Assembly: GCA_965232875.1 (NCBI GenBank)
Contig: OZ247431.1
Coordinates: 1,110,273 to 1,174,272 of the forward strand
Direction of reading: 5' to 3'
Length of the DNA stretch: 64,000 nt
From: Dehalococcoidia bacterium
Lineage (GTDB): Bacteria > Chloroflexota > Dehalococcoidia > Bin125
Shown here: piece by piece, positions 1-63,075 of the stretch
Layout of the letters: each line of letters opens with the position of its first letter
Numbering within the stretch: the stretch's first letter is position 1
The notes under the pieces: generated by a model
What the model was told of the DNA's origin: nothing
The model's input: the letters and a program-made list of their open reading frames with translations, nothing else
Databases searched by the model: none
Position numbers and translations under genes: made by a program

Positions 1-46
1 GGTTGGTGCTGCGACTGACGATGTCGGGCATGATGGGGGCTTCAGC
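1..46 (-). pseudogene. Remnant duplicate of the GMC oxidoreductase 3' end; the minus-strand translation ...LHAEAPIMPDIVSRSTN resembles ...LRVADASIMPDIVSCNTN of the intact gene
   Basis: About 36 of 46 nt identical to positions 587-632 (the 3' end of the 540..2063 gene). In-frame continuation into 47..130 is not GMC-like and no long minus-strand ORF is present, so this is a fragment, not a paralog. Confidence 0.4.
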
Positions 47-523
47 ATGAAGCTTAGGTATTGGACCACTCTGTTTGGCGTCATCCTGGCAATCGGAGGG
101 TGCGCGATCGTGTGCCAAGGTGGGGATGAGGTGGAACCGGTGATCGGGCCGTTTCCGGAGCAGGCAGAAGATGTGGAACTCGAAGAGTTGATTGGTCCGA
201 AATACATCCGTGCCGCAGGAGGCGGCTCACTGTGTGGAAGCGATGTCTTTTCTACTTACGCTGGAGCCGCTGTGCCGCACGGCCTGTCCGCGACAAGTGT
301 GTTGCCGGCAGAACTGGTGCAAGTGGTTGAAGAGTTTGGTTGGACGATCGACCAATATCAGCACCGGTGGTTTGGAGAGTATCGTGTGGTACTACTATTG
401 ACTACGGTCGATGAATCAACACAGGCGCTGTTTGCGCATGCATTGGAGTTAAAGCGGCTAGCGCCGGAGGACGGAGATGAGTTCTGGTCGGTCCCAGAGC
501 GACAATTGGCGCGGTCGTGTTGA
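47..523 (+). CDS. Hypothetical lipoprotein (signal peptide with lipobox LAIGGC)
   Basis: 158-aa ORF. N-terminal hydrophobic segment followed by Cys (MKLRYWTTLFGVILAIGGCA). No recognisable family. Sits between the GMC 3'-end remnant and the intact GMC gene. Confidence 0.45.
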   Translation: MKLRYWTTLFGVILAIGGCAIVCQGGDEVEPVIGPFPEQAEDVELEELIGPKYIRAAGGGSLCGSDVFSTYAGAAVPHGLSATSVLPAELVQVVEEFGWTIDQYQHRWFGEYRVVLLLTTVDESTQALFAHALELKRLAPEDGDEFWSVPERQLARSC

Positions 524-539
524 CGGGTGATGTGGACTG

Positions 540-2063
540 TTATTGCAGATCCTCCGCCACGCGTTCGCCGATCATGATGGCGGTCAAGTTGGTGTTGCAG
601 CTGACGATGTCAGGCATGATTGAGGCGTCGGCGACTCTCAGGTGTTCGGTCTGATGGACTCGGCCTCTCTGATCGGTGACGGCCAGCGGGTCGGTCGAGC
701 GACCCATCCGCGCCGTGCCGCAGATATGCCAAGTCGTTGAGGTGGTTCGGCGGACGTAGTCTGCCAGGGCGTTGTCTGACTCCATCACCTCAGGTCTCGG
801 TGCAATCACGCGTTCGGTGAACTGCGCGATTTTGCCCGAGTGCATGATCTCCCAGCAGAGCCGCGCGCCGTCCATCAGCCGGCGCAGATCCTCGGGGTGC
901 GAGGCGTAGTTCATGTCGAGCTGCGGCTGCTCCGACGGGTCTGTCGAGCGCAGCGTCACTGAGCCGCGCGAGAGCGGACGCTGAATCACCGCGCCGATGC
1001 CAAACGACGGATGCTGCCGCGGCGCCTCCGTCAGGCCGCGCACCTGTTCCTCGTCCCAGATCGTCGAGATCGCGAGTTGCATGTCGTTGAACAGATCGGA
1101 GCCGGGCGCGGTGTATCGCACGCCGATCTCGGTGACCACGTCGGGGTCATGCACAACATCGGGCTTGGGGAACGCCTGCACGCCGGTACCGAAGTGATCG
1201 ATCAGGTTCTCGCCGACGCCCGGCAGGGCCACGCGTTGCTTGATTCCGTGAGGCGAGAGCTTCTCCGCCGGACCAATCCCGCTACGCATCAAGATTGCCG
1301 GCGACACTGCCGATCCAGCCGAGACGCAGACGCGGTCGCTGTTGATGACTTCGCTGTCGCTGAGGATCACGCCGTTGACGCGAGCGCCGGAGTCGCCGTC
1401 GAAACTCAGTTTGTCGACCAACACGCCGTGCCGAATGGTCAGATTCTCGCGGTCGCGGATTCCGAGCAGGTAGGCAATGTTGGTTGAGATGCGGTTGCCG
1501 TTGCTGCGATTGCGCGGCCACGGTCCGACGCCGGTCGCATCGGGCAGGTTGTGGTCCCAGACATCGTCGAATCCGTTGCCGCGGCAGGCGTCGTAGAAGG
1601 CGCGCTGCAGCGGTTGCCAGTTTCCGGATGGCTCACGTTCGATCGGAACGGGACCAGATTGCCCGTGGAAGTCGCCGCCTTCAGGATCAGATTCGAGGCG
1701 TCGGTAGTAGGGCAGGACATCCTCGAAGCGCCACTCGTCGCAGCCGTGCGCGACCCACGACTCGAAGTCGCCGGGTACGCCGCGCAGAGCGATCGTCCCG
1801 TTGACCGCCGACGAACCGCCCATCACCTTGCCCCGATGCAGCGGAAACTCGCGACCATGCCGGGCATTGGCCTGGAATCCCCAGTCGTGATCGCGCCACG
1901 AGACCCATGGCTTGAGCAGGTCACGAGGCATGTCCTCGACGCGGGTGTAATCCGGCCCAGCCTCAAGCAGCAATACCCTCCGATTCGGGTCCTCGGACAA
2001 CCGAGCCGCAATCACCGCTCCCGCCGATCCTGCGCCGATGATGATGTCGTCGTACGTTGCCAT
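540..2063 (-). CDS. GMC-family FAD-dependent oxidoreductase (choline/alcohol dehydrogenase-like)
   Basis: 507 aa. N-terminal Rossmann DIIIGAGSAGAVIAARLSE...VLLLEAG. Typical GMC C-terminal region with active-site His (HICGTARMG). Family-wide similarity. Confidence 0.9.
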   Translation of the reverse strand: MATYDDIIIGAGSAGAVIAARLSEDPNRRVLLLEAGPDYTRVEDMPRDLLKPWVSWRDHDWGFQANARHGREFPLHRGKVMGGSSAVNGTIALRGVPGDFESWVAHGCDEWRFEDVLPYYRRLESDPEGGDFHGQSGPVPIEREPSGNWQPLQRAFYDACRGNGFDDVWDHNLPDATGVGPWPRNRSNGNRISTNIAYLLGIRDRENLTIRHGVLVDKLSFDGDSGARVNGVILSDSEVINSDRVCVSAGSAVSPAILMRSGIGPAEKLSPHGIKQRVALPGVGENLIDHFGTGVQAFPKPDVVHDPDVVTEIGVRYTAPGSDLFNDMQLAISTIWDEEQVRGLTEAPRQHPSFGIGAVIQRPLSRGSVTLRSTDPSEQPQLDMNYASHPEDLRRLMDGARLCWEIMHSGKIAQFTERVIAPRPEVMESDNALADYVRRTTSTTWHICGTARMGRSTDPLAVTDQRGRVHQTEHLRVADASIMPDIVSCNTNLTAIMIGERVAEDLQ

Positions 2064-2183
2064 AGTGTCCCCTACTTGCGTCCCGATCCGTGGGCTGAGG
2101 ATACGTCAGCATTGCGCCGGAACTTGATCAGCGAGGCGAGATCATCCGATAACGTGACGCAGAGCAATACCAGCGTCCTCGCC

Positions 2184-2346
2184 TCCGTCATTCCTGCGAA
2201 GGCAGGAATCACGAAACACCCATGTCGTCAACGAGACTGGGCAATGACGTACCTCATCCTCAGCAAGCGGAGATCGGGGTACAGCGAGACGCTTTGCCGC
2301 TATCGATGAACCGAGGATCGTGATTCCTGCCTTCGCAGGAAAGACG
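2184..2346. repeat. MITE-like composite: two inverted copies of a ~29-bp hairpin unit (CCGTCATTCCTGCGAAGGCAGGAATCACG at 2184-2212; CGTGATTCCTGCCTTCGCAGGAAAGACG at 2319-2346) flanking ~100 bp
   Basis: Each unit is a perfect 8-bp stem hairpin, and the two units are reverse complements of each other. Same family recurs at 52752-52780 and 54584-54612. Located in the divergent intergenic region between the GMC gene and the CoA-transferase gene. Confidence 0.6.
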
Positions 2347-4867: not shown

Positions 4868-5082
4868 GATTCAGTCCCCGCTGTACGGAGACCCTTGCAA
4901 AACTTCCGAATCCCCTCTCCCCCCCTTGCGGGGGAGATGTCACGGAGTGACAGAGGGGGGGTCGGCTGATGATGACCAGGTGAGGCTCCCGAACAGCGCC
5001 CTCCCTGCCTTCGGCATCTCCCCCGCAAAGGGGGGAGAAGGGGAGTTATTCCAAGGTCTCCGTAGAGCGGGAACTGGAACTG
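4868..5082. repeat. Copy A of a ~200-bp long imperfect palindromic repeat element (nested hairpins)
   Basis: Inner arms CTCCCCCCCTTGCGGGGGAGATG / CATCTCCCCCGCAAAGGGGGGAGAAG. Central palindrome GTCACGGAGTGAC. Outer arms CAGTCCCCGCTGTACGGAGACC / GGTCTCCGTAGAGCGGGAACTG. Near-identical copies at 12352-12535 and 62893-63075. Sits immediately 3' of the CoA-transferase stop. Confidence 0.75.
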
Positions 5083-5169: not shown

Positions 5170-8100
5170 ATGCCGCCGAGTGGATCTGTGTCGCCCGTTT
5201 CCAAGCTGTTGATTGCCAATCGTGGCGAGATTGCGATTCGTGTGGCTCGTGCGGCCTCCGATCTGGGCATTGCCACCGTCTCCGTCTACTCCAAGGACGA
5301 CGCCAGGTCTCTGCACGTTCACGCCGCCGATGAAGCGGTCGAGCTCGATGCGCTGGGCGTCCAGGCATACCTCGACATTGACGGCCTGATTGCGGCCGCG
5401 CAATCGACCGGCTGCGACGCGGTGCATCCCGGTTACGGATTCCTGTCAGAGTCGGCAGAGTTTGCCCGACGCTGCCGAGATGCAAGCATCACCTTCGTCG
5501 GTCCGACAGCGCATCTGCTCGATCTGTTCGGGGACAAGGTCCGCGCCAGGCAGGCTGCGAGAGAAGCCGGCGTGCCGGTGATTGAAGGCTCCGACCAGGC
5601 AGTCACCCTGAGCGAAGCGGTTGACTTCTTCGAGTCGCTGGGCGAAGACGCGGCGGTGATGCTCAAGGCGGTAGCAGGCGGCGGCGGACGAGGCTCGCGG
5701 GCAGTCACCGACATCAACGAAATGGAGGCCGCCTGGGAGCGCTGCGAGTCCGAGGCGCGCATGTCGTTCGGCTCCGGCGCGCTGTACATCGAGCAGCTCA
5801 TTCCCCGCGCCCGACACATCGAAGTGCAGGTGATTGGAGACTTGCACGGCGGTGTCGGTCACCTGTGGGAGCGCGAGTGCTCGGTCCAGCGGCGATTCCA
5901 GAAGATCGTGGAGATCGCGCCGGCGCCACACCTGGAAACATCCACGCGCGAAGCCATCGTCGAGGCGGCCGTACGTATCGCACGCGACGTGGGCTACTCG
6001 TCTCTGGGCACGTTCGAGTTCCTGTTGGACGCCTCAGACGGCTCGAATGACGCCTTCTTCTTCCTCGAGGCGAACGCGCGACTACAGGTCGAGCACACCG
6101 TGACCGAACAGGTCACCGGCGTCGACCTGGTCCAGTCGCAACTGCGAGCTGCGCAAGGCGCATCAATCTCCGACCTCGGCCTCGACGATCCGTCCTGGCT
6201 GCGTCCACGTGGGTTCGCGATTCAGACCCGCGTCAACATGGAAACACTCACGCCCGACGGCTCGGTGCGTCCGGCGTCAGGCACGCTCAAGGCTTATGAG
6301 GCGCCCTCTGGGCCGGGTGTGCGCACCGACGGCTTCGGCTACGTCGGCTACCAGACATCTACTTCGTTCGACTCGCTGCTGGCGAAGGTGATCGCGCACG
6401 CTCCGGCGCCAAGATTCGAGGATGCGTTGACGCGCTCGTTGCGCGCGCTGTCCGAGTTCCGGATTGAAGGCGTCGCGACGAACATCCCGTTCCTCACCAA
6501 CGTGCTGGAGCATGCCGACCTCGTCGAAGGTCGTGTCCACACTCGCTGGGTCGACGAGCAGATGGCCGAGTTGGCGACGTTCAATGGCGCGCAGCGCGTG
6601 CGCTATCTGCAAGCGGAAGCACCGACGGCCGACAGCGGGTTCGCCGGCGCGCGCGTTGATTCGCGTGATCCATTGGCGCTCTTTCAGCACGATCAGGAAG
6701 TCAAGCAGCAGCAGTCCTTGCAGGTCGTCGAGGAAGAGGCGCCGGACTTGACCGGTCCGGAAGGCTCAATCGGTCTGCCCGCGCCGATCCAGGGCACGAT
6801 CGTTTCGATCATGGTCGAAGAGGGTCAGGAAGTGCGGAAGGGCCAGGACCTCGTCGCGATGGAAGCGATGAAGATGGAGCATGTGATCTCCGCCGACCGC
6901 GACGGGATCGTCAAGGCGTTGGGCTGCTCCATCGGCGATGTGATCCGTGAAGGCTTCCCACTCGTCTTCATCCTCGAGGCGGAAGTCTCGGTCGAGGCGA
7001 TCGGTGACGACGACCTGATCGACCCCGATTTCATCCGACCCGACCTACAGGAAAACTACGACCGACACGCCTACACGCTGGACGAAAATCGGCCCATCGC
7101 TGTGTCCAAACGTCGCGGACGCGGCTACCGCATGCCGCGCGAGAACATTGAACAACTCGTCGATCCGGGTTCATTCCAGGAATACTGGCCGCTGATCGTG
7201 GCGCGTCAGCACCAGCGCAATACCGACGAGCAACTGAGAGAGAACACACCTGCCGACGGTCTGCTCGCCGGTACGGCGACGATCAATGGCGACCTGTTTG
7301 ACGATGAGCGGGACGCCCGCGCGATTGTCGTGCATTACGACTACACGGTGCTCGCGGGCACGCAGGGCGGTCGCAATCACTACAAGCAGGACCGCATGTT
7401 TGAAATGGCGCGCCGCTTCAACTTCCCCATTGTCTTCTACACCGAGGGTGGGGGCGGAAGGCCCGGCGACGACCGGACCGGTCCCGGCGTGGCGTTCGAT
7501 ACCTACACGTTCACGCAGTTTTCGAAGCTCTCGGGCCAGGTGCCGCTGGTCGGTGTGACCAATGGTCGCTGTTTCGCCGGCAACACGGCGCTGCTTGCCT
7601 GCTGCGACGTGATCATCGCCACTGAAGGCTCAACCGTCGCGATGGGCGGTCCGGCAATGATCGAGGGCGGCGGCCTCGGCATCTATACGCCGGAAGAGGT
7701 CGGACCGATGTCGTTCCAGGTCCCGAATGGTGTGGTCGACATCCTCTGCAAGGATGAGGAAGAGGCGACCGATATCGCCAAGAAGTATCTGAGCTACTTC
7801 CAGGGACCGATCAAGGAATGGACCGCGCCCGATCAGCGCCGTCTGCGCCACATCGTGCCTGAGAACCGGTTGCGTCTCTACGACATGAAAGAGATCATCC
7901 ACACGATCGCCGATGAAGGCTCGGTGCTGGAGATTCGCGAGAAGTTCGGGATCGGGATCATCACTGCGTTCATCCGCGTCGAGGGACATGCGATCGGCGT
8001 GATCGCGAACAACCCGCATCACCTGGCCGGCGCGATCGACTCTGACGGCTCGGACAAGGGCGCGAGATTCCTGCAGCTCTGCGACGCGTTCGATATCCCC

Positions 8101-8592
8101 GTGCTCAGTCTGATGGATTGCCCCGGCATGATGGTCGGCCCCGATGTCGAAGCGACGGCGCTGGTGCGTCACTGTGCACGGATGTTCAACACCGGGGCCA
8201 ACTTGAGTGTGCCGCTGTTCGGCGTGGTCGTGCGCAAGGCGTATGGACTCGGAGTCCAGGCGATGTGCGGGGCCAGCGCGCTGGTCGGATTCTTCACTGT
8301 CGCCTGGCCGACGGCCGAGTTCGCCGGCATGAACATCGAAGGTTCAGTGAAGCTTGGATATCGCAAAGAACTCATCGCGATCGAGGACCCCGAGGAGCGG
8401 ATCGAGACCTACGAGCACATGGTGGCGCGAGCGTACGACAACGCCAAAGCAGTCAACTCAGCCGCCGGCGGTGGTCTCGATGATGTGATCGATCCCGCAG
8501 ACACGCGCGAGTGGATTGCCAACGGCCTCAAGCGCCTCCCGCCAACGCCAGAGCGCACTGGCAAGAAGCGTCCCTACATCGATACGTGGTAA
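5170..8592 (+). CDS. Single-chain multidomain biotin-dependent acyl-CoA carboxylase (BC - BCCP - CT)
   Basis: 1140 aa. N-terminal biotin carboxylase (LIANRGEIAIRVARAASDLGI..., ATP-grasp). Biotinyl domain with the EAMKMEH biotinylation motif near residue 560. C-terminal ~520-aa carboxyltransferase domain (propionyl-CoA carboxylase beta-like, GGGRPGDD). RBS GGAGTGA precedes the start. Confidence 0.9.
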   Translation: MPPSGSVSPVSKLLIANRGEIAIRVARAASDLGIATVSVYSKDDARSLHVHAADEAVELDALGVQAYLDIDGLIAAAQSTGCDAVHPGYGFLSESAEFARRCRDASITFVGPTAHLLDLFGDKVRARQAAREAGVPVIEGSDQAVTLSEAVDFFESLGEDAAVMLKAVAGGGGRGSRAVTDINEMEAAWERCESEARMSFGSGALYIEQLIPRARHIEVQVIGDLHGGVGHLWERECSVQRRFQKIVEIAPAPHLETSTREAIVEAAVRIARDVGYSSLGTFEFLLDASDGSNDAFFFLEANARLQVEHTVTEQVTGVDLVQSQLRAAQGASISDLGLDDPSWLRPRGFAIQTRVNMETLTPDGSVRPASGTLKAYEAPSGPGVRTDGFGYVGYQTSTSFDSLLAKVIAHAPAPRFEDALTRSLRALSEFRIEGVATNIPFLTNVLEHADLVEGRVHTRWVDEQMAELATFNGAQRVRYLQAEAPTADSGFAGARVDSRDPLALFQHDQEVKQQQSLQVVEEEAPDLTGPEGSIGLPAPIQGTIVSIMVEEGQEVRKGQDLVAMEAMKMEHVISADRDGIVKALGCSIGDVIREGFPLVFILEAEVSVEAIGDDDLIDPDFIRPDLQENYDRHAYTLDENRPIAVSKRRGRGYRMPRENIEQLVDPGSFQEYWPLIVARQHQRNTDEQLRENTPADGLLAGTATINGDLFDDERDARAIVVHYDYTVLAGTQGGRNHYKQDRMFEMARRFNFPIVFYTEGGGGRPGDDRTGPGVAFDTYTFTQFSKLSGQVPLVGVTNGRCFAGNTALLACCDVIIATEGSTVAMGGPAMIEGGGLGIYTPEEVGPMSFQVPNGVVDILCKDEEEATDIAKKYLSYFQGPIKEWTAPDQRRLRHIVPENRLRLYDMKEIIHTIADEGSVLEIREKFGIGIITAFIRVEGHAIGVIANNPHHLAGAIDSDGSDKGARFLQLCDAFDIPVLSLMDCPGMMVGPDVEATALVRHCARMFNTGANLSVPLFGVVVRKAYGLGVQAMCGASALVGFFTVAWPTAEFAGMNIEGSVKLGYRKELIAIEDPEERIETYEHMVARAYDNAKAVNSAAGGGLDDVIDPADTREWIANGLKRLPPTPERTGKKRPYIDTW
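8541..8592. repeat. Left copy of a 52-bp imperfect direct repeat (last 17 codons plus stop of the carboxylase gene)
   Basis: GCCAACGCCAGAGCGCACTGGCAAGAAGCGTCCCTACATCGATACGTGGTAA. Matches 9654-9705 at 48/52 positions. Confidence 0.8.
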
Positions 8593-8596
8593 TCGC

Positions 8597-9649
8597 TACA
8601 TGCACTGGCTGGCATTTCTGGCGCTATTGACCACGATCATCTTCGGGGCTTGCGCCGACGATGAGCCGCCCGATGATTCGACCCCTCGTCCTGAGCGTCA
8701 AGAGACTGATTCCCCCAGTACCCCACCTACGATCGATGAGATCGAAGGTGAGACGCTCGCCGACATCATGCGCATACTCTATCGGCGCCAGATGAGATCG
8801 CATCCCACAGTCTGTGCGTATGTGCTGGGTACGGGCGTCTACGGTGTGAGCCAAGCGCTTGACCGAGACACGCACCCAGCGCAGATAGTGGCTGACCTTG
8901 TGGAGGGTTGGACAGGAAGCATCTGGATCGGCGAGTTTGGGGACTATGAACTCTCCTGGACGGAGCTGCAGCGAATTGTGCTGGTCGCTCCAGACGGGGT
9001 CTCCCTGCCGCATCAGGGCTTCTATGACACAATCGGCGACGCCCTGGAATTCAAGTACATCCGAGGTAAGTTTGAGCTGACTATGATCGGACGTCTCTTC
9101 GATTGTAGCGATCCGAACGGCGCCTATCCCGATGGAATCGGCGAACTCGCTCAGCGTCACAGCGAAGATGAGGGGTTGTTCGTCTATGACGTTGAGGAAG
9201 TGGTCGACATTGAACACGGTACAAATAGTCACGTTGATCAGAGGTACTCGATCCTGGAGGTCGCCGATCACAATGATTGGCCTCCTGCGGTTGATCTGCC
9301 TGTGTTGGCCGACCTGTTGACGGAAACGGCGCGCGAGCATTGGTCATCGGAATTCGTCTGTGTGAGTGTGACGAGGCGGCCGGTCGATTCGGGCGAAGCC
9401 GGGACTGGTTTGACGGCTGACTCGCCGCTGCCCGAAGCATTCCTGCGAATTTTCGACGAGCTCCGATTCGACCCTGAGCAGGCGACACTGCTGCTGATCG
9501 GGACACGCAACATTGTCCTCGCCTGGGTCGAGTCGTATAACGACGCCGGCAGAGTGACTGCAGCCGAGTTCGTCAAGAGCGAAGACGGCAATTGGTCCGA
9601 ACGGACTTGGGTGTCCATGTATGGATGTGGCCCACTGGGCAGTGAGTAG
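8597..9649 (+). CDS. Hypothetical lipoprotein (MHWLAFLALLTTIIFGAC lipobox), 350 aa
   Basis: ORF with signal peptide plus Cys. Start placed at the ATG just after the carboxylase stop; the track's upstream start overlaps the carboxylase frame. Appears somewhat less GC-rich by eye. Flanked by the 52-bp direct repeats. Confidence 0.6.
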   Translation, partial: YMHWLAFLALLTTIIFGACADDEPPDDSTPRPERQETDSPSTPPTIDEIEGETLADIMRILYRRQMRSHPTVCAYVLGTGVYGVSQALDRDTHPAQIVADLVEGWTGSIWIGEFGDYELSWTELQRIVLVAPDGVSLPHQGFYDTIGDALEFKYIRGKFELTMIGRLFDCSDPNGAYPDGIGELAQRHSEDEGLFVYDVEEVVDIEHGTNSHVDQRYSILEVADHNDWPPAVDLPVLADLLTETAREHWSSEFVCVSVTRRPVDSGEAGTGLTADSPLPEAFLRIFDELRFDPEQATLLLIGTRNIVLAWVESYNDAGRVTAAEFVKSEDGNWSERTWVSMYGCGPLGSE

Positions 9650-9653
9650 CGTC

Positions 9654-9705
9654 GCCAACGCCGGGGCGCACCGGCAAGAAGCGTCCCTACATCGATACGT
9701 GGTAA
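9654..9705. repeat. Right copy of the 52-bp direct repeat; encodes ...PTPGRTGKKRPYIDTW* in frame, i.e. a second copy of the carboxylase C-terminus
   Basis: GCCAACGCCGGGGCGCACCGGCAAGAAGCGTCCCTACATCGATACGTGGTAA. Confidence 0.8.
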
Positions 9706-9839: not shown

Positions 9840-10475
9840 GTGAAGGGTTGGGTCGGCTGGCTCGGCCGCAGCATTGGAGTTGCGGCGCTCCTGCTGGTGT
9901 TGGGGCTGACCCTGCCGCAACCCTCTAGCGACGCCGCGCAGGGCACGAAGTCGTGGGCGTCAAGCACGGTGTACTTCGAGCGCAAAGGAGACTGGTCCAG
10001 CGTTCCGAACAGCTATCGGAATGCCGTGCTTCGAGCGGACAACGAATGGGCCGACAACACCCGCTGGAATCCAATCATCACCGCGAGCCCGGCACACAAC
10101 GGCATCTACTGGGGTAATGACGAAGATCCATGGGCCTCTCGAAGTTGCACTCCGCCAGTTTCAACTTCCGATGCGTTCGGCAAGGAATGTAAGCGATTCG
10201 TCCCTGGGAGGATCACTAACTCGGAGATCATGTTGAATGCGGCCAGGTCATGGGATAGCGATCGTGTTCAGGGTGTCATGACTCACGAGCTTGGGCACTC
10301 AGGAGGCTTGACCCACGATCCGGTTTACACAGCAGAGATCCCGAGCACCTCGACCTGTCAGTCCACGAATCAGCATCGTTGGACGATGTGCTCGAAGTTC
10401 TTGGACGACAACGCATCCTGGGCGGCTAGCACCGAACGGCATGATCGCGATGATGCCGACGCGATGTACCCGTAG
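9840..10475 (+). CDS. Secreted metzincin-type zinc metalloprotease (snapalysin/M7-like small neutral protease)
   Basis: Signal peptide. Extended zinc-binding motif HELGHSGGLTHD (HExxHxxGxxH). C-terminal Met-turn-like ADAMYP. 211 aa. Confidence 0.75.
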   Translation: MKGWVGWLGRSIGVAALLLVLGLTLPQPSSDAAQGTKSWASSTVYFERKGDWSSVPNSYRNAVLRADNEWADNTRWNPIITASPAHNGIYWGNDEDPWASRSCTPPVSTSDAFGKECKRFVPGRITNSEIMLNAARSWDSDRVQGVMTHELGHSGGLTHDPVYTAEIPSTSTCQSTNQHRWTMCSKFLDDNASWAASTERHDRDDADAMYP

Positions 10476-10517: not shown

Positions 10518-11060
10518 ATGTCTACCTCCAGACTCAACCGACTGACAGGAGCTAGGTGGCTTCGGATCGGGATCTTGGTGATCGTCGTTGCCGCGGCCAC
10601 GGCCGTCTGGCTGACTCGATCAGGGGAGCGCCCGGTGCTCGCGATCGCGCACATGTCGCTTAACGAGATCGAGTCGCAATTGTATGCGGAGCTCAAGGCG
10701 ATTCACGGCCGCGAAGTTTGCGGCATCGAGGAAACTTCAACGCCAGACGCCAGCGGCTACAGCAGCAACCTCGTCTCGGAGCACGAGAACGGCCTACCGT
10801 CCCAGCGAGTCATCGAATGGCTCGAAGAGTCTGAGCACAGCTTCGACCAGGTCGACGACTATCAATTGTCCGGGTCAAGCGTGGTGTTTCTCGCCTATGC
10901 AGAAGACCGCAATGAGGACAGCCTCGTCACGTTGGTTAACGGTGATCAGGTACATGCCAACGTCGTGGTGGTGCACGCTCTGTCGGGCGGGAACAGAGGC
11001 GAGGATCGCTGGGAGATCGTTCACGGTGCTTCGTACTGGATTTGCGATCCGTTGGAGTAA
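10518..11060 (+). CDS. Hypothetical N-terminally membrane-anchored protein
   Basis: 180-aa ORF with one N-terminal TM helix (WLRIGILVIVVAAATAVWL). No recognisable family. Confidence 0.5.
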   Translation: MSTSRLNRLTGARWLRIGILVIVVAAATAVWLTRSGERPVLAIAHMSLNEIESQLYAELKAIHGREVCGIEETSTPDASGYSSNLVSEHENGLPSQRVIEWLEESEHSFDQVDDYQLSGSSVVFLAYAEDRNEDSLVTLVNGDQVHANVVVVHALSGGNRGEDRWEIVHGASYWICDPLE

Positions 11061-11213: not shown

Positions 11214-11720
11214 ATGTCTTTCACGGTGCGCCGCCTGCTTGCTAGTTTGTTCGCGGGCGCAATCGTTGCAACTTTGAGCGCTGCCTGCGGCGCTGCCGAC
11301 GACCGAGGGCAGAACTCGGTCGACCAAGCCCAGTTCAGCTTGGTCGGCCTCGATGGACACGAGGCGACGCAAGCGGTCTACGAGCGCGTGGGCGAACGGT
11401 ACGGCCTCGATTGCGAGCAGAGTTGGGAAGCGTCGCTCGATGTCACCGGACTCGATCCCAACTACCCCGAAGCGAGCGGTCTAGCGGACGGTTCGGAGCC
11501 GACGCCGGAGATCCTCGACGCGATTCGAGAGGCGGGTAGCCATCCCGACTCCTTCGAGCACTGGTACGTGACATCGACACGTGCGGTGTTCGCGTCGTTC
11601 GAGATTGAAGAGGGCTGGAACGCGCTGCCGGAAGTGATTCAGGTCTTGTGGCTCGGCTACGACGCGGAAGGCACGCCGCGCTGGGGCGCCGATTACGGAG
11701 CGTTGCTGGGGCCATGTTGA
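11214..11720 (+). CDS. Hypothetical lipoprotein (MSFTVRRLLASLFAGAIVATLSAAC)
   Basis: ORF with lipoprotein signal. Start moved to the internal ATG that carries the signal peptide. No family assignment. Confidence 0.5.
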   Translation: MSFTVRRLLASLFAGAIVATLSAACGAADDRGQNSVDQAQFSLVGLDGHEATQAVYERVGERYGLDCEQSWEASLDVTGLDPNYPEASGLADGSEPTPEILDAIREAGSHPDSFEHWYVTSTRAVFASFEIEEGWNALPEVIQVLWLGYDAEGTPRWGADYGALLGPC

Positions 11721-11748: not shown

Positions 11749-11825
11749 TGGCGACCCCGAGCGGATTCGAACCGCCGGTCTCCACCTTGACAGGGTGGCG
11801 TGTTAGGCCGCTACACCACGGGGCC
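11749..11825 (-). tRNA. tRNA-Asp (anticodon GUC)
   Basis: Reverse complement GGCCCCGTGGTGTAGCGGCCTAACACGCCACCCTGTCAAGGTGGAGACCGGCGGTTCGAATCCGCTCGGGGTCGCCA folds as a cloverleaf: 7-bp acceptor stem, GTGT/ACAC D-stem, CCACC/GGTGG anticodon stem with loop CTGTCAA, T-arm GGTTCGAATCC, encoded CCA. Confidence 0.85.
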
Positions 11826-12351: not shown

Positions 12352-12535
12352 TTTGGTTGATTCCCAGTCCCCGCTTCACGGAGGCCTCTGCAAAACTCCC
12401 CTTCTCCCCCCTTGCGGGGGAGATGTCACGGAGTGACAGAGGGGGGGCGGCTGATGACGACCAGATAGGGCTCCTGAACAGCGGACCCCCCTCTGCCTTC
12501 GGCATCTCCCCCGCAAGGGGGGAGAAGGGATTCGA
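12352..12535. repeat. Copy B of the ~200-bp palindromic repeat element (lacks the right outer arm)
   Basis: CAGTCCCCGCTTCACGGAGGCC...CCTTGCGGGGGAGATGTCACGGAGTGACAGAGGGGGGG...GGCATCTCCCCCGCAAGGGGGGAGAAGG. Confidence 0.75.
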
Positions 12536-52191: not shown

Positions 52192-53850
52192 TCAATCTGG
52201 TCTCCAGCGGGCGTCTTGGCCTCTGGGTTTGGCGACGATCTGGAGGCGCCCGGTTGACCTGGTGGGTGTGGGGACTTGTTGGAGGAGTTCGTGCATGTAG
52301 CGGTCGGCGTCGAGGAGGTCGTCGTTCCGTTTGCGGGGTTTGGGATCGGGATCGTCGCCGGTTTGCCAGACGTACTCTTGCATGCGCTTGGGGAAACAGG
52401 TGAGGTTCTCGGTGTAGAACGATGCGGGCGGGTCGGCGGCGAGCGGTTCGTGGACGAGGTTGACGCCGTAGAGCACGGAGCCGGGGTTGCCGGCGGCGGG
52501 GACGACGTGGATGCCCTGTCGTCGTTGGTGGTCGATCCAGGCGGATTGGGAGCGGTCGGCGGCCCAGCGGATGGGACCGAACTTGCGCTGGCATTGACGC
52601 TGCCATTGTTCGAGTCGCTGGATGACGCCGGGGCCTCGGTCTTCGAACTCGGCGAGTCGGATCAGGGTGAAAGGGTGTTGGGAGGAGGTGGGAGGTGTGC
52701 TGCGGCTGGGGGACGGCTGGCGGGTGGTGTCGTTGATGGGCTTGGGCGGTTCGTGATTCCTGCCTGCGCAGGAATGACGGAGGGGGGAGACCCCCCCCCC
52801 TCTGCCTGCGGCATCTCCCCCCGCAAGGGGGGGAGAGAGGAATGGGGGGTGGGTGAGGCCTGCGATGATGCCGGCGGTGTGGTGGGCGGTGTCGGTTTGG
52901 CCGCCGAAGTCGAGGCCGCCGATGATGTGGGTGAACGGTGGGAGGGGGCCTGACCAGCAGTGGCGGTCGGGGTCGAAGTCGGGGTAGACGCGGCCCATGA
53001 GGGCGTTCCAGCGGCCGTCGATGAAGCGGTCGCGCCATTGTGGGGGCAGGAGGGCGTGGTTGAGCTGGGCGTAGTTGTCGGGCAGGTGGGGGTTGTCGGC
53101 GATTTTGGCGGGGATGAAGGCGACCTGTCCGCTGGCTTCGTGGAGGGCGTCTTCGGGTAGTTCACGGTGCAGGAACCAGCGCTGGAACCAGCCGGGCCAG
53201 GGGTTGGAGGCGGCGACGAACCAGCGCTGCGGCTGGGCCGGGTGGCGCAGGCGGGTGAGCAGCATCAGGGCGGCGTCCTCGTCGACCTGACCGGCTTCGT
53301 CGATCAGGACGGCGCCGTACTGCTGGGAGCCGAGGCCCTGCCAGTCGGAGAGGTGGCGGAAGTTGACGGTTGAGTGTTGGTCGCGGGGCCAGCCGGGTAG
53401 CCGCAGCTGGACGAGCGAGGTCGGGGCCTGCTGGCGTCGCTGGATCAGTTCGGGCGGGCAGACCTGGAAGAACTCTTTCATGGTGGTGGAGGAGAGGTCG
53501 GAGAGGTGGTGTCGGGCGACGAGGATGTTGTCGCCGGGGTGCATGAGCGCGGCGTCGATGGCGAGTTCGGCGATGGCGCGGGTTTTGCCCCCGCCCATGG
53601 CGCCGCCGTAACCGAGCAGGGTGAGGCCGGGATCCGGAGCATCGATCAGCGCTTCGTACAGCTCGTGCTGCCGCTCCGTCGGTCGAAAACTCCGACCTGC
53701 GCGCAAATCCGCCAGCCGCCTCAACGTTCGTCTCCGCATAGTCACTGCTCGCATCGCATCAGATCCTCTCTCGCCACGGCGAACGCCCGTCGCTTCGTTC
53801 AGATCAGCAACAGTACATATGAGCGGATACCCTTCGCCACTCCTCCTCAC
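52192..53850 (-). CDS. Phage terminase large subunit-like protein (ATPase plus RNase-H-like nuclease) with an in-frame repeat-element insertion
   Basis: Walker A GYGGAMGGGKT. Walker B AVLIDEAGQV. Nuclease motifs HIIGGLDFGG and RKRNDDLLDADRYMHE. Residues ~335-395 (PFLSPPLAGGDAAGRGGGVSPLRHSCAGRNHEPPKPINDTTRQPSPSRS) are encoded by repeat DNA at 52752-52850. Confidence 0.75.
   Translation of the reverse strand: MRRSGEGYPLICTVADLNEATGVRRGERGSDAMRAVTMRRRTLRRLADLRAGRSFRPTERQHELYEALIDAPDPGLTLLGYGGAMGGGKTRAIAELAIDAALMHPGDNILVARHHLSDLSSTTMKEFFQVCPPELIQRRQQAPTSLVQLRLPGWPRDQHSTVNFRHLSDWQGLGSQQYGAVLIDEAGQVDEDAALMLLTRLRHPAQPQRWFVAASNPWPGWFQRWFLHRELPEDALHEASGQVAFIPAKIADNPHLPDNYAQLNHALLPPQWRDRFIDGRWNALMGRVYPDFDPDRHCWSGPLPPFTHIIGGLDFGGQTDTAHHTAGIIAGLTHPPFLSPPLAGGDAAGRGGGVSPLRHSCAGRNHEPPKPINDTTRQPSPSRSTPPTSSQHPFTLIRLAEFEDRGPGVIQRLEQWQRQCQRKFGPIRWAADRSQSAWIDHQRRQGIHVVPAAGNPGSVLYGVNLVHEPLAADPPASFYTENLTCFPKRMQEYVWQTGDDPDPKPRKRNDDLLDADRYMHELLQQVPTPTRSTGRLQIVAKPRGQDARWRPD
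52752..52850. repeat. Chimeric repeat inside the terminase ORF: CGTGATTCCTGCCTGCGCAGGAATGACGG hairpin unit fused to the right half of the ~200-bp palindromic element (GCCTGCGGCATCTCCCCCCGCAAGGGGGGGAGAG); includes C10 and G7 homopolymers
   Basis: Direct comparison with 4868-5082 and 2184-2346. Confidence 0.7.
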
Positions 53851-53948
53851 CCCCCATCATGCGGACCTCCGTCAACTCAGCTACTGAAAAAGAATATGTG
53901 TTCGCATACAGTCAACCTCAGAGACGCGACCACCGAACGGATCAACCC

Positions 53949-54398
53949 ATGACCATCCCGCAAACCGCCCCTCAACCCATCCATCAGGCCTCCCCGCAGG
54001 CCCCACCTCAGGCCTCCCCGCAGGCCATACCTCAGGCCTCCCCGCAGGCCTCCCCGCAGGCCATCCATCAGCGCTATTGGCAGATCGCCAACAACCCCGA
54101 GGAACGTGGCTACGTCCAGGTCCGCGCTCTCGATTCCCTCGCCCGGCTCCTCGACCTCTTCCCCCGTCCCGCCCACCCCGGCTTCTTCGCCTGCGACCCC
54201 GAACCCCCGCCTCCCGCGATCCCGAACGGCCCCTACGCGGTCGCCAGCATGAGCGACGAAGACCTCGATGCCCTGATCGACAGAGAAGAAGCCGCCGCCA
54301 ACACCCAGGCCGACAAAGAAGCGGAAGCCAACACTGAATCCGAGCCCGATGACGAAGACGAGGAAGGATCCGGCCGGGATGAGGACGAACCTCCCTAA
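53949..54398 (+). CDS. Hypothetical protein with (A/I)(S/P)PQA tandem repeats and an acidic C-terminal tail
   Basis: ORF divergent from the terminase gene. Start chosen at MTIPQTAPQ; the track gives 53859. The repeat is encoded by ~24-bp tandem units at 53975-54069. C-terminus EPDDEDEEGSGRDEDEPP. Coding status uncertain. Confidence 0.4.
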   Translation: MTIPQTAPQPIHQASPQAPPQASPQAIPQASPQASPQAIHQRYWQIANNPEERGYVQVRALDSLARLLDLFPRPAHPGFFACDPEPPPPAIPNGPYAVASMSDEDLDALIDREEAAANTQADKEAEANTESEPDDEDEEGSGRDEDEPP

Positions 54399-54583: not shown

Positions 54584-54612
54584 TTGGCTGGTTCGTGATT
54601 CCTGCCTGCGCA
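54584..54612. repeat. Hairpin repeat unit CGTGATTCCTGCCTGCGCAGGAATGACGG (same as 52752-52780) 3' of purB
   Basis: Exact 29-bp match to the copy inside the terminase gene. Confidence 0.7.
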
Positions 54613-54653
54613 GGAATGACGGAGTGGGGGGATCGCGGGTGGTAGGGCTCTTG

Positions 54654-62892: not shown

Positions 62893-63075
62893 ACTCCTCA
62901 TCCCGAGTCCCCTCTCCCCCCTAACGGGGGGAGATGTCACGGAGTGACAGAGGGGGGGTCGGCTGATGATGACCAGATCGGGCTCCCGAACAGCGGACCC
63001 CCCCTCTGCCTTCGGCATCTCCCCCGCAAGGGGGGAGAAGGAGAGTTCTTCAAGGGTCTCCGCTGAGCGGGGACT
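62893..63075. repeat. Copy C of the ~200-bp palindromic repeat element, immediately 3' of tpiA
   Basis: CTCTCCCCCCTAACGGGGGGAGATGTCACGGAGTGACAGAGGGGGGGTCGGCTGATGATGACCAG...GGCATCTCCCCCGCAAGGGGGGAGAAGG...GGGTCTCCGCTGAGCGGGGACTGG. Confidence 0.75.

What the first reader, a model, noticed from the sequence alone, without database searches (positions are those of the whole stretch)
1..640. Second instance of the same architecture: a GMC oxidoreductase 3'-end fragment, a lipoprotein gene, then the intact GMC gene
Positions 1-46 are ~78% identical to the 3' terminal coding region of the GMC gene (587-632). They translate on the minus strand to ...AEAPIMPDIVSRSTN, versus ...ADASIMPDIVSCNTN in the intact gene. 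Between this fragment and the intact gene's 3' end lies another single lipoprotein ORF (47-523). This mirrors the carboxylase/lipoprotein arrangement ~8 kb away. The fragment runs off the window edge, so its full extent is unknown.
Basis: seen in the sequence. Interest (0 to 1): 0.5.

Follow-up and report, generated by a model that had tools for sequence, protein, structure and literature searches.

The report
Leftover gene tail beside inserted lipoprotein gene
The first 46 bases of the window are a dead leftover copy of the tail of the neighbouring GMC oxidoreductase gene, pushed aside when a small lipoprotein gene was recombined in next to that enzyme gene; this is a known kind of recombination scar in a hypervariable gene array of sponge-associated Dehalococcoidia.

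Summary
Window 2-46 matches 588-632 at 37/45 positions; the next-best match in 128 kb has 17 mismatches. It reads ...AEAPIMPDIVSRSTN on the minus strand.

Close relatives (complete MAG chromosome OZ244071.1 and four long-read contigs) carry the same layout and show what lies to the left. The fragment is only about 96 nt long and ends at its own stop. The next gene is another lipoprotein gene, not a second GMC paralog.

The fragment and its tail best match the GMC 3' end of relatives that lack lp1. I therefore read it as the resident gene's original tail, displaced when [new GMC tail + lp1] came in. As coding sequence it is dead: it is frameshifted in 5 of 6 genomes, and the invariant SCNTN motif has become SRSTN.

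All four lipoprotein-like ORFs in the window belong to one small, uncharacterised, lineage-restricted family. In 55 related loci, members sit only at two hot spots: the GMC|MFS junction and the carboxylase|tRNA-Asp junction.

The same junction (lp1-type ATG abutting GMC codon Ala) recurs in diverged strains, twice in tandem in one lineage. lp1 is about four times less diverged than the adjacent GMC gene. This fits spread of repeat-flanked cassettes by homologous recombination.

[quoted passage not shown] Interest is modest.

The parts
1..46 (-). The first 46 nt of a ~96-nt displaced, non-functional copy of the GMC oxidoreductase 3' end. The rest lies off the left edge of the window. On the + strand it forms the 5' leader of lp1, with GGGGG 8 nt upstream of the ATG.
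   Evidence: repeat and its significance. (full fragment in L002, L056, L062-64). (best match is the L004/L003 GMC tail). (derived substitutions that give an SD-like run).
47..523 (+). lp1: a 158-aa predicted lipoprotein (lipobox IGGC). It belongs to a small uncharacterised family with a conserved Cys pair and the motif HGL..S.LP...EYEHRWFG..R.VL. It is the inserted cassette.
   Evidence: no Pfam; family. (GC 54-55% against 62-66% in the flanks). (only ~2% divergence from relatives, against ~8-9% in GMC).
524..539 (.). A 16-nt spacer between the convergent stop codons of lp1 and GMC. There is no room for an attC-like site or a terminator.
540..2063 (-). The intact GMC-family FAD oxidoreductase gene (507 aa). 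Its last ~93 nt (540-632) are the copy homologous to the fragment. Its tail (..EDLQ*) is of a different type from the fragment's tail.
8540..8592 (+). DR1: the last 53 nt, including TAA, of the biotin-dependent carboxylase gene (5170-8592).
8600..9649 (+). lp2: a two-domain member of the same lipoprotein family and the cassette of the second instance.
   Evidence: Homologs directly after the carboxylase with no repeat occur in L001 and L003.
9653..9705 (+). DR2: a displaced copy of the carboxylase 3' end (94% to DR1, 2 synonymous and 1 non-synonymous difference). The sequence after it is collinear with what follows the carboxylase stop in L004.
10518..11060 (+). lp3: a family member with a membrane anchor and no lipobox Cys, in the carboxylase|tRNA-Asp array.
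11214..11720 (+). lp4: a family member (lipobox SAAC), the last cassette before tRNA-Asp. It sits in a different array position in L002, L021 and L024.
11749..11825 (-). tRNA-Asp (GTC), the conserved far boundary of the second array. In most relatives it lies 15-40 nt from the carboxylase stop.

Best explanation
Window 1-46 is the start of a ~96-nt pseudogene remnant. It is the original 3' end of the resident GMC oxidoreductase gene. It was displaced when foreign DNA carrying [a complete GMC 3' end + a convergent lipoprotein gene, lp1] was recombined into a tight junction of convergent genes.

The first event most likely had one crossover inside the conserved GMC gene, acting as a homologous anchor. 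The other end was an illegitimate joint that fused lp1's ATG to GMC codon Ala(-31). [quoted passage not shown]

Once formed, the repeat-flanked unit needs no recombinase of its own. The displaced tail serves as a second homology arm. Ordinary homologous recombination can therefore carry [tail + lp] into any strain that has the target gene. Unequal crossing-over between the repeats can also amplify the unit.

The carboxylase/lp2 repeat 8 kb away is the same kind of scar, made by the same process, at the second hot spot of the same lipoprotein family.

Shown: the anatomy, the empty sites, the decay of the fragment, the shared junction and the low divergence of the cassette. Inferred: the recombination pathway. 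Also inferred: that the antisense strand of the fragment now serves as lp1's ribosome-binding leader.
For: (1) Fragment, not paralog. In L002, L056 and L062-64 the fragment ends at its own stop after ~96 nt and is followed by lipoprotein gene lpB.

(2) Displaced resident tail. The fragment plus its tail aligns best to the GMC 3' end plus downstream of L004 (97/116) and L003 (93/114). In those loci GMC is followed directly by lpB. The intact gene's tail in the window and L002 (EDLQ*) is of another type.

(3) Dead as coding sequence. It has a 1-nt deletion in all 5 relatives. SCNTN, invariant in the full-length GMC genes of all 54 loci that carry one (L001-L054), reads SRSTN.

(4) Hot spots. The gap between GMC stop and MFS stop ranges from -4 to 2875 nt, and it is <=10 nt in 8 loci. 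All 47 family ORFs found in the loci and window lie at GMC|MFS or carboxylase|tRNA-Asp, all in one orientation. One exception is noted under evidence against.

(5) Clean empty site for lp2 in L004. Donor-like layouts (carboxylase-lp2 with no repeat) occur in L001 and L003.

(6) Portability. The same lp2 joint (TAGCGT|CGCCAACGCC) is followed by different DNA in the window (protease gene) and in L002 (lp4). The same lp1 joint (CAT|GCCGA.GCC) occurs in the window, L002, L056, L062-64, L052 and L065-69, and twice in tandem in L057-61/L070.

(7) Uncoupled divergence. Window 1-500 shows 0-4 mismatches per 100 nt against relatives, whereas GMC shows 2-21 (lp1 97.3% identical, GMC 91.8%). The cassettes are also lower in GC.

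(8) Illegitimate joints elsewhere in the arrays. There are truncated lp1 5' remnants in L052 and L065. In L002, L021 and L024 a protease 3' remnant is joined next to the tRNA edge at a microhomology, ACC(C)CGA(G/A)CGG.

(9) No mobility gene, no att-like hairpin and variable repeat lengths (53, ~96, >=134 nt).

(10) Both mechanisms are documented elsewhere: insertion with long target duplication (PMC2853133), and homology-facilitated illegitimate recombination with 3'-end displacement (PMC5361080).
Against: No donor sequence for the original lp1 event was found, so the illegitimate joint and any microhomology at it cannot be shown.

A single crossover of a circular [tail + lp1] molecule would give the same product and cannot be told apart from the proposed event.

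The 53-nt carboxylase repeats are too short to assign donor and recipient copies.

The window's own left flank was not recovered. Exact-protein look-ups failed, so the ~96-nt extent is read from relatives whose lp1 is 95-97% identical.

Natural competence, or any other DNA-uptake route, is unknown in these uncultured symbionts.

One family locus (P0003, L057-61) lies in a different context, disrupted by an IS element, with no intact GMC gene in view.

The persistence of the fragment at 82-96% identity across diverged strains is not fully explained. Gene conversion, selection on it as a leader, and recent spread all remain open.
Confidence: 0.7

Rival explanations
1. Plain in-situ tandem duplication. 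A segment running from 96 nt inside the GMC 3' end to just upstream of the neighbouring lipoprotein gene was duplicated. The two lipoprotein copies then diverged into lp1 and lpB.
For: lp1 and lpB are same-orientation members of one family. Two tandem [fragment + lp] units with a 121-nt repeat at 88% identity exist in L057-61/L070. Unequal crossing-over probably does amplify units once a repeat exists.
Against: lp1 and lpB are only ~28% identical in protein, while the fragment is still 82-87% identical in DNA to the intact tail, so they cannot be the same age. The tail after the last conserved codons differs in type between the two copies, and the fragment's tail matches L003/L004. lp1 is much less diverged between strains than the GMC gene next to it.
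Confidence: 0.12
2. Site-specific integration of small gene cassettes by a recombinase acting in trans (integron-like, or a tRNA / gene-3'-end-targeting integrase). On this reading the duplicated gene tails are att sites.
For: The cassettes are single ORFs in one orientation, arranged in arrays. One array abuts the 3' end of tRNA-Asp. Both repeat left boundaries happen to read GCC(A/G)ACGCC. The identical junction recurs in many genomes.
Against: No integrase or transposase domain was found in the cassettes. The called genes of the look-up loci (L056, L062-L069) carry no integrase or transposase Pfam family. The 55 genome-contig loci (L001-L055) were not Pfam-annotated apart from one ORF of L007. 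Repeat lengths and boundaries differ between events (53, ~96, >=134 nt; L007's boundary lies further upstream). There is no attC-like hairpin and no room for one: 16 nt and 3 nt after the cassette stops. Most arrays have no duplication at all. The recurring junction is explained by common descent, because the fragments share derived substitutions.
Confidence: 0.08
3. A functional spare part. The fragment would be an alternative C-terminus for the GMC enzyme, swapped in by recombination between the repeats in a programmed variation system.
For: In the window itself the 15 visible codons are in frame and keep IMPDIV..TN.
Against: The fragment is frameshifted in all five relatives. It loses Cys and Asn of the SCNTN motif, which is invariant in the full-length GMC genes of all 54 loci that carry one (L001-L054). 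By spacing (+44 from the WHICG His), that Asn corresponds to the second catalytic residue of GMC enzymes; this rests on my own knowledge, not a test. Recombination between direct repeats would simply delete lp1.
Confidence: 0.03
4. Assembly artefact: strain variants of a hypervariable region were concatenated by the assembler.
For: The source is evidently a metagenome-derived genome of a strain-rich population. Four co-existing strains occur in one sample.
Against: The same architecture is present in at least 6 independent assemblies, including a complete long-read chromosome and contigs at 112-368x coverage. The longest exact match between the GMC copies is 11 nt, far below assembler k-mers.
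Confidence: 0.02

Closest known systems
Insertion with long target duplication (Nobusato et al. 2000; Furuta, Abe & Kobayashi 2010, PMC2853133)
   Same: A short insert without any mobility gene is flanked by direct repeats of tens to hundreds of bp. The repeats correspond to a single-copy sequence in related 'empty' genomes. They often overlap the 3' end of a gene, so the gene stays intact. The authors propose spread and amplification through the repeats.
   Different: There the cargo is restriction-modification genes, mostly in naturally competent bacteria. Here it is a single gene of a secreted lipoprotein family in uncultured sponge-associated Dehalococcoidia. The same junction has also been propagated into tandem units and across strains.
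3'-end (C-terminal) displacement arrays of Rhs/CdiA/T6SS effector-immunity loci, attributed to homology-facilitated illegitimate recombination (Kirchberger et al. 2017, PMC5361080; Jackson et al. 2009, cited there)
   Same: The layout is the same: [conserved gene with new 3' end][new small gene][old 3' stub][old small gene]. New units are added next to the anchor gene and older ones are pushed outward. Arrays of small genes build up.
   Different: GMC oxidoreductase and the carboxylase are conserved metabolic enzymes, not polymorphic toxins. Their 3' ends are not variable domains. lp1 is on the opposite strand from GMC. There is no evidence that the lipoproteins are immunity proteins.
Integron gene-cassette arrays
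   Same: These are also tightly packed arrays of single, mostly promoterless ORFs in one orientation, variable between strains.
   Different: No IntI gene or attI was seen. There are no attC sites, and the spacers after the cassettes are 3-16 nt. The duplicated sequences are host gene tails of variable length.
Additive genomic islands at tRNA genes, with partial tRNA repeats
   Same: The second array sits against the 3' end of tRNA-Asp and differs in content and order between strains.
   Different: There is no integrase. The clear duplications are of protein-gene tails. A putative tRNA 3' fragment after lp3 in the window was not significant.

Membership tests
Insertion with long target duplication (criteria of Furuta et al. 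2010) | The insert is flanked by direct repeats longer than 30 bp. | tested here: met
   45 nt are visible in the window (82%). About 96 nt are seen in L002 and L056, with a blast-aligned core of 67 nt at 87%. The carboxylase site has 53 nt at 94%.
Insertion with long target duplication (criteria of Furuta et al. 2010) | The repeat aligns to a single-copy sequence in a related genome that lacks the insert. | tested here: met
   In L003 and L004, GMC is followed directly by lpB. L004 shows the carboxylase stop followed directly by the sequence that follows DR2 in the window.
Insertion with long target duplication (criteria of Furuta et al. 2010) | There is no integrase, transposase or other mobile element in the insert, and the insert is under 20 kb. 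| tested here: met
   The inserts are 586 nt and 1113 nt, each a single ORF with no Pfam hit.
Insertion with long target duplication (criteria of Furuta et al. 2010) | The cargo is a restriction-modification system. This was a criterion of that survey, not of the mechanism. | tested here: not met
   The cargo is a lipoprotein-family gene.
Polymorphic-toxin C-terminal displacement array (Rhs/CdiA/T6SS effector-immunity) | The anchor gene encodes a toxin with a conserved body and a variable C-terminal toxin domain. | tested here: not met
   The anchor genes are a GMC oxidoreductase and a biotin carboxylase/carboxyltransferase fusion. The GMC C-terminus is conserved across the full-length GMC genes of the 54 loci that carry one (L001-L054).
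Polymorphic-toxin C-terminal displacement array (Rhs/CdiA/T6SS effector-immunity) | A cognate small (immunity) gene lies immediately downstream on the same strand. | tested here: not met
   lp1 is convergent with GMC. lp2 is co-directional with the carboxylase, but that gene is not a toxin.
Polymorphic-toxin C-terminal displacement array (Rhs/CdiA/T6SS effector-immunity) | Displaced 3' stubs of the anchor gene are retained between the small genes. | tested here: met
   Seen in the window, L002, L056, L062-64, L052, L065-69 and L007. There are two stubs in tandem in L057-61/L070.
Integron cassette array | An attC recombination site (imperfect inverted repeat of 57-141 bp) lies at the 3' end of each cassette. 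| tested here: not met
   Only 16 nt separate the lp1 stop from the GMC stop, and only 3 nt separate the lp2 stop from DR2.
Integron cassette array | An adjacent intI integrase gene and attI site. | tested here: inconclusive
   None appears among the called genes within 5-6 kb of the GMC-side array in the look-up loci. The whole genomes and the rest of the window were not screened.
Integrase-mediated integration into a gene or tRNA 3' end (att duplication) | The element carries, or is linked to, an integrase, and independent insertions share one fixed att core boundary. | tested here: not met
   No integrase was found in the inserts. L007's duplication of the same gene tail has a different, longer boundary (>=134 nt) and different cargo.
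GMC oxidoreductase family (for the fragment) | A full N-terminal FAD-binding domain and a C-terminal substrate domain with catalytic His and Asn/His. | tested here: not met
   The intact gene meets this. The fragment covers only the last ~31 codons, is frameshifted in relatives, and has Ser in place of the motif Asn.
Bacterial lipoprotein (for lp1) | An N-terminal signal peptide ending in a lipobox [LVI][ASTVIG][GAS]C. | tested here: inconclusive
   MKLRYWTTLFGVILAIGG|C fits by eye, as do lp2 (IFGAC) and lp4 (LSAAC). lp3 has a hydrophobic anchor without Cys. No signal-peptide predictor was available.

The most novel reading that the evidence does not exclude
The [antisense GMC-tail + lp] module may be more than a scar. 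It could be a self-propagating, recombinase-free cassette whose captured piece of a conserved host gene has two roles. It would be the homology arm that targets the cassette to that gene in any related strain. It would also be the cassette's own translation leader, because the fragment lineage shares substitutions that turn the antisense GAGG into GGAGG or GGGGG 7-8 nt before the ATG. Together with the second hot spot, this would be a dedicated system for diversifying a surface lipoprotein repertoire in sponge symbionts.
Probability: 0.15. Interest if true: 0.6.

Novelty: new member of a known kind. Interest (0 to 1): 0.33.

Why it matters
The finding explains an odd-looking duplicate of a conserved enzyme's tail. 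It is neither a second gene nor an alternative C-terminus. It is the footprint of how accessory genes are slotted between tightly packed convergent genes without damaging them.

It also defines two strain-variable hot spots and a previously unnamed secreted lipoprotein family: only 39 cluster representatives at 50% identity among 1.84 billion proteins. The loci recovered all come from Dehalococcoidia or Chloroflexi MAGs, several named after sponge-metagenome bins.

Such arrays are candidates for cell-surface variation in symbionts, where host or phage interactions are an obvious possibility. They could also serve as markers for tracking strains and recombination in uncultured populations. The mechanism itself is already known from other bacteria.

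Tried and rejected
Exact-sequence look-ups of lp1 and GMC to recover the window's own contig found nothing. Leftward extension therefore rests on relatives.

It was useful because it holds two tandem fragments, but it gave no wider census.

lp1 and lp2 show no pairwise BLAST similarity. Only an iterative profile search united lp1-lp4.

I first read degenerate tRNA-Asp 3' fragments between cassettes. The one after lp3 in the window is not significant (15% of shuffles score as well). The L002 case turned out to be mostly protease coding sequence joined at a microhomology (re-read). The claim was dropped except for the few bases at the tRNA edge.

Assigning donor and recipient copies of the 53-nt carboxylase repeat by identity to relatives was not discriminating.

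A sigma-70 promoter and terminator scan of the fragment/lp1 region in L056 found nothing.

The 380-aa ORF in L007's independent duplication has only weak helix-turn-helix hits and no transposase domain.

An integron-like reading was prompted by a GTTGAGT next to the tRNA. It was rejected for lack of attC sites and integrase.
Full report
**1. The observation**

Window 2-46 and 588-632 form a direct repeat with 37/45 identical bases. Scanning both strands of the window with the 45-mer gives 8 mismatches for this copy and at least 17 for everything else. It is far beyond chance.

On the minus strand the copy reads ...KLH|AEAPIMPDIVSRSTN. The C-terminus of the ORF at 540-2063 (-) reads ...ADASIMPDIVSCNTNLTAIMIGERVAEDLQ*. 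That ORF has the Pfam GMC_oxred_N and GMC_oxred_C domains.

ORF 47-523 (+) begins MKLRYWTTLFGVILAIGGC, a lipoprotein-like signal by inspection. Its ATG touches the fragment, and its stop is 16 nt from the GMC stop.

The arrangement 8 kb away is also real. The last 53 nt of the carboxylase, including TAA (8540-8592), recur at 9653-9705 (94%). They flank ORF 8600-9649 with 7 and 3 nt to spare.

**2. Where the window comes from, and the leftward extension**

A scan of one genome per species with the GMC protein returned 55 loci. All are Dehalococcoidia or Chloroflexota MAGs. Many are complete long-read chromosomes, and several are named after sponge-metagenome bins.

The window's own contig is not on record. 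However, L002 (OZ244071.1) and four contigs from one long-read metagenome (L056, L062-L064) carry lp1 at 95-97% identity in the same layout: MFS transporter, then lpB, then a 98-nt gap, then lp1, convergent with GMC.

The gap is the fragment. It runs about 96 nt, from GCT GAA GCC... to its own TAA (..IMPDIVSRSTNLTAIMIADRVAGSMLT*). It is followed at once by the 3' end of another lipoprotein gene. So it is a short fragment, not a paralog.

In all five relatives a C-run is one base shorter than in the window, which breaks the frame. The fragment also changes Cys and Asn of SCNTN, a motif invariant in the full-length GMC genes of all 54 loci that carry one (L001-L054; L055 holds only a short internal match). 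By its spacing from the WHICG histidine, that Asn corresponds to the second catalytic residue of GMC enzymes; this rests on my own knowledge and was not tested. The fragment is therefore not a usable alternative C-terminus.

**3. Which copy is the original**

The fragment plus the ~20 nt after its stop aligns best to the GMC 3' end plus downstream of L004 (97/116) and L003 (93/114). In those genomes GMC is followed directly by lpB. The intact gene in the window and L002 ends with a different tail (EDLQ*), followed by different DNA.

The simplest reading is that an L003/L004-like resident (GMC-lpB) received a segment consisting of [GMC 3' end + 16 nt + lp1]. The resident's own last 96 nt were left behind as the fragment.

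**4. The surroundings: two hot spots and one protein family**

An iterative profile search over all ORFs of the window and loci, started from lp1, gathers 47 ORFs. They include all four lipoprotein-like ORFs of the window: 47-523, 8600-9649, 10518-11060 and 11214-11720.

They share a ~130-aa domain with a conserved Cys pair and the motif HGL..S.LP....EYEHRWFG..R.VL. Larger proteins hold 2-3 copies of the domain.

The family has no Pfam match. It gives 34 hits in the 5.8-billion-protein index. It gives only 39 cluster representatives at 50% identity among 1.84 billion proteins. A moderate-confidence model (pLDDT 67) has no informative structural neighbour. Its function is unknown.

In the loci, members lie only between GMC and a convergent MFS gene, or between the carboxylase and tRNA-Asp. 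They are always in one orientation. The exception is the P0003 loci described in section 5.

The gap between GMC stop and MFS stop ranges from -4 to 2875 nt. Eight loci have <=10 nt, which is the likely ancestral state. In most loci the carboxylase stop lies 15-40 nt from tRNA-Asp.

Cassette content and order differ between close relatives:
- Window: lp2, fragment, protease-like gene, lp3, lp4.
- L002: lp2, fragment, lp4, lp3.
- L021 and L024: lp4, lp3.
- L004: remnant protease gene, lp3.
- L001 and L003: lp2 only.

L004 is a clean empty site for lp2. L001 and L003 show the donor-like layout, with the carboxylase followed by lp2 and no repeat.

**5. How general are the scars**

Most arrays carry no duplication of the GMC tail. 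Duplications occur in four settings:
- The window lineage.
- L052 (96% over 74 nt).
- L065-L069 (96% over 51 nt).
- L007, where the repeat boundary is different and longer (>=134 nt). Its cargo is different too: a weak helix-turn-helix ORF plus a dispersed ~130-nt repeat element.

In L052 and L065 the junction is exactly that of the window: an lp1-type ATG abutting GCC GA. GCC. There, however, only the first ~30 codons of lp1 remain, followed by a different family member with its own signal peptide.

The contigs carrying P0003, which is 49% identical to lp1, hold two such units in tandem. Their fragments read AEASIMPDIVSCNTN... and AEAPIMRDFVSCNTN..., within a 121-nt repeat at 88%. Each is followed by an lp1-type start, and the outer one is cut by an IS5-like element.

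These fragments share derived changes absent from every intact GMC: GAC to GAA/GAG, and TCA to TCC/CCC. They are therefore one fragment lineage that has travelled with the lp1-type 5' end, not repeated fresh displacements. L052's fragment lacks these changes and is nearly identical to its own intact copy, which suggests gene conversion.

**6. Evidence for transfer**

Against L002, L056, L062 and L064, window 1-500 (fragment + lp1) shows 0-4 mismatches per 100 nt. The adjacent GMC gene shows 2-21 (lp1 97.3% identical, GMC 91.8%).

An accessory gene being about four-fold less diverged than the core enzyme beside it means the cassette shares a more recent ancestor than its flank. That indicates exchange by recombination.

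The cassettes are also lower in GC: 54-59% against 62-66%. The identical lp2 joint is followed by non-homologous DNA in the window and in L002. This is expected if the displaced tail (DR2) acts as the right-hand homology arm in an ordinary double crossover.

**7. Mechanism**

Best supported (confidence about 0.7 for the overall picture, lower for the exact pathway): a founding event with a homologous anchor in the conserved gene and an illegitimate joint at the other end. This produced an insertion with long target duplication that preserves the enzyme gene. It was followed by spread and occasional amplification of the repeat-flanked unit through homologous recombination.

Other illegitimate joints in the arrays fit this. 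They include the truncated lp1 remnants, and a protease 3' remnant joined near the tRNA edge at the microhomology ACC(C)CGA(G/A)CGG in L002, L021 and L024.

Integration of a circular [tail + lp1] molecule by one crossover would give the same product and cannot be excluded.

The rivals fare as follows:
- Plain tandem duplication is disfavoured. lp1 and lpB are ~28% identical in protein, whereas the tails are 82-87% identical in DNA and of different tail types.
- Site-specific integration is disfavoured by the variable boundaries, the absence of att-like structure (3-16 nt spacers) and the absence of a recombinase in the inserts. The called genes of the look-up loci (L056, L062-L069) also show none. 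L001-L055 and the rest of the window were not domain-screened.
- An assembly artefact is excluded by at least 6 independent assemblies and by the lack of long exact matches.

**8. A possible present-day role (inference)**

On the lp strand the fragment is the 5' leader of lp1. The derived TCA to TCC/CCC change converts the antisense GATTGAGGCG into GATGGAGGC or GATGGGGGC. This gives GGAGG or GGGGG 7-8 nt before the ATG. Core genes in the window have similar purine runs at that distance.

No sigma-70-like promoter or terminator was detected. This would explain retention of the fragment, but it is untested.

**9. Comparison with what is known**

The anatomy meets the mechanistic criteria of 'insertion with long target duplication' (PMC2853133). 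The repeats exceed 30 bp, they align to a single copy in an empty-site genome, and the insert holds no mobility gene. In that paper too the repeats often overlap gene 3' ends. The cargo differs.

It also looks like the 3'-end displacement arrays of Rhs and T6SS effector-immunity loci. For those, homology-facilitated illegitimate recombination was proposed (PMC5361080). It is not a member of that class, because the anchor genes are conserved metabolic enzymes and lp1 is on the opposite strand.

It is not an integron array: there is no attC.

**10. Verdict**

It is now explained as a recombination scar inside a hypervariable lipoprotein-gene array.

It is a new member of a known kind. Interest is modest (0.33). 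The lift comes from the recurrent, co-propagated junction, the possible exaptation of an antisense enzyme-gene tail as a leader, and the definition of a new lineage-restricted lipoprotein family with two dedicated hot spots.

Noticed in passing
window 4872-5076; also 12410-12529 and 62925-63071; L007 11554-11702 and many other loci: A dispersed ~120-150-nt repeat element with internal inverted repeats (I1 and I3) occurs in intergenic regions of the window and of many related loci at 80-88% identity. It looks like a REP/MITE-type element. One copy is part of the cargo of L007's independent GMC-tail duplication.
   Followed up: partly
window 2186-2214 / 2318-2346; 52742-52790; 54584-54632: There is a 29-nt near-perfect inverted repeat (CGTCATTCCTGCGAAGGCAGGAATCACGA) between the GMC and CoA-transferase genes. 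Two 49-nt direct copies of a related palindromic sequence lie 50 kb away. This is a second family of short palindromic intergenic repeats.
   Followed up: no
window 53945-54095: A tandem 12-nt repeat (8 registers of a 55-nt unit) would encode a Pro/Gln/Ala/Ser-rich low-complexity stretch.
   Followed up: no
window 9840-10475: An ORF inside the lipoprotein array carries a zincin motif (HELGHSGGLTHD). Its Pfam hits to Reprolysin_5 and Peptidase_M10 are weak and below threshold. Only its last ~57 nt survive in L002, L021 and L024, between lp4 and lp3.
   Followed up: partly
window 8540-8549 and 624-632 (minus strand); L052 1141-1149: The left boundaries of the two duplications read almost the same 9-10-mer: CGCCAACGCC at the carboxylase and GCCGACGCC at GMC. 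A rough estimate of the chance probability is a few in a thousand. L007's boundary lies elsewhere, so I treated it as coincidence.
   Followed up: partly
L030 8350-9882 and 10001-11515: One more distant relative has two full-length GMC paralogs in tandem, with C-termini 73% and 78% identical to the query. This is the 'complete second paralog' situation that does not apply to the window.
   Followed up: no
L057 6620-7460 (also L058-L061, L070 1-60): An IS5-like element (DUF4096 + DDE_Tnp_1) is inserted ~30 codons into an lp1-type gene, next to the outer GMC fragment. Another transposase fragment (DUF772) lies upstream. In this lineage the array is not next to an intact GMC gene in the DNA retrieved.
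   Followed up: partly
window 1-2100 versus L056, L062, L064, L002: Divergence along the GMC gene is very uneven, at 2-21 mismatches per 100 nt with peaks near window 700-800, 1300-1400 and 1600-1700. This suggests a mosaic of recombination tracts within the core gene itself.
   Followed up: no
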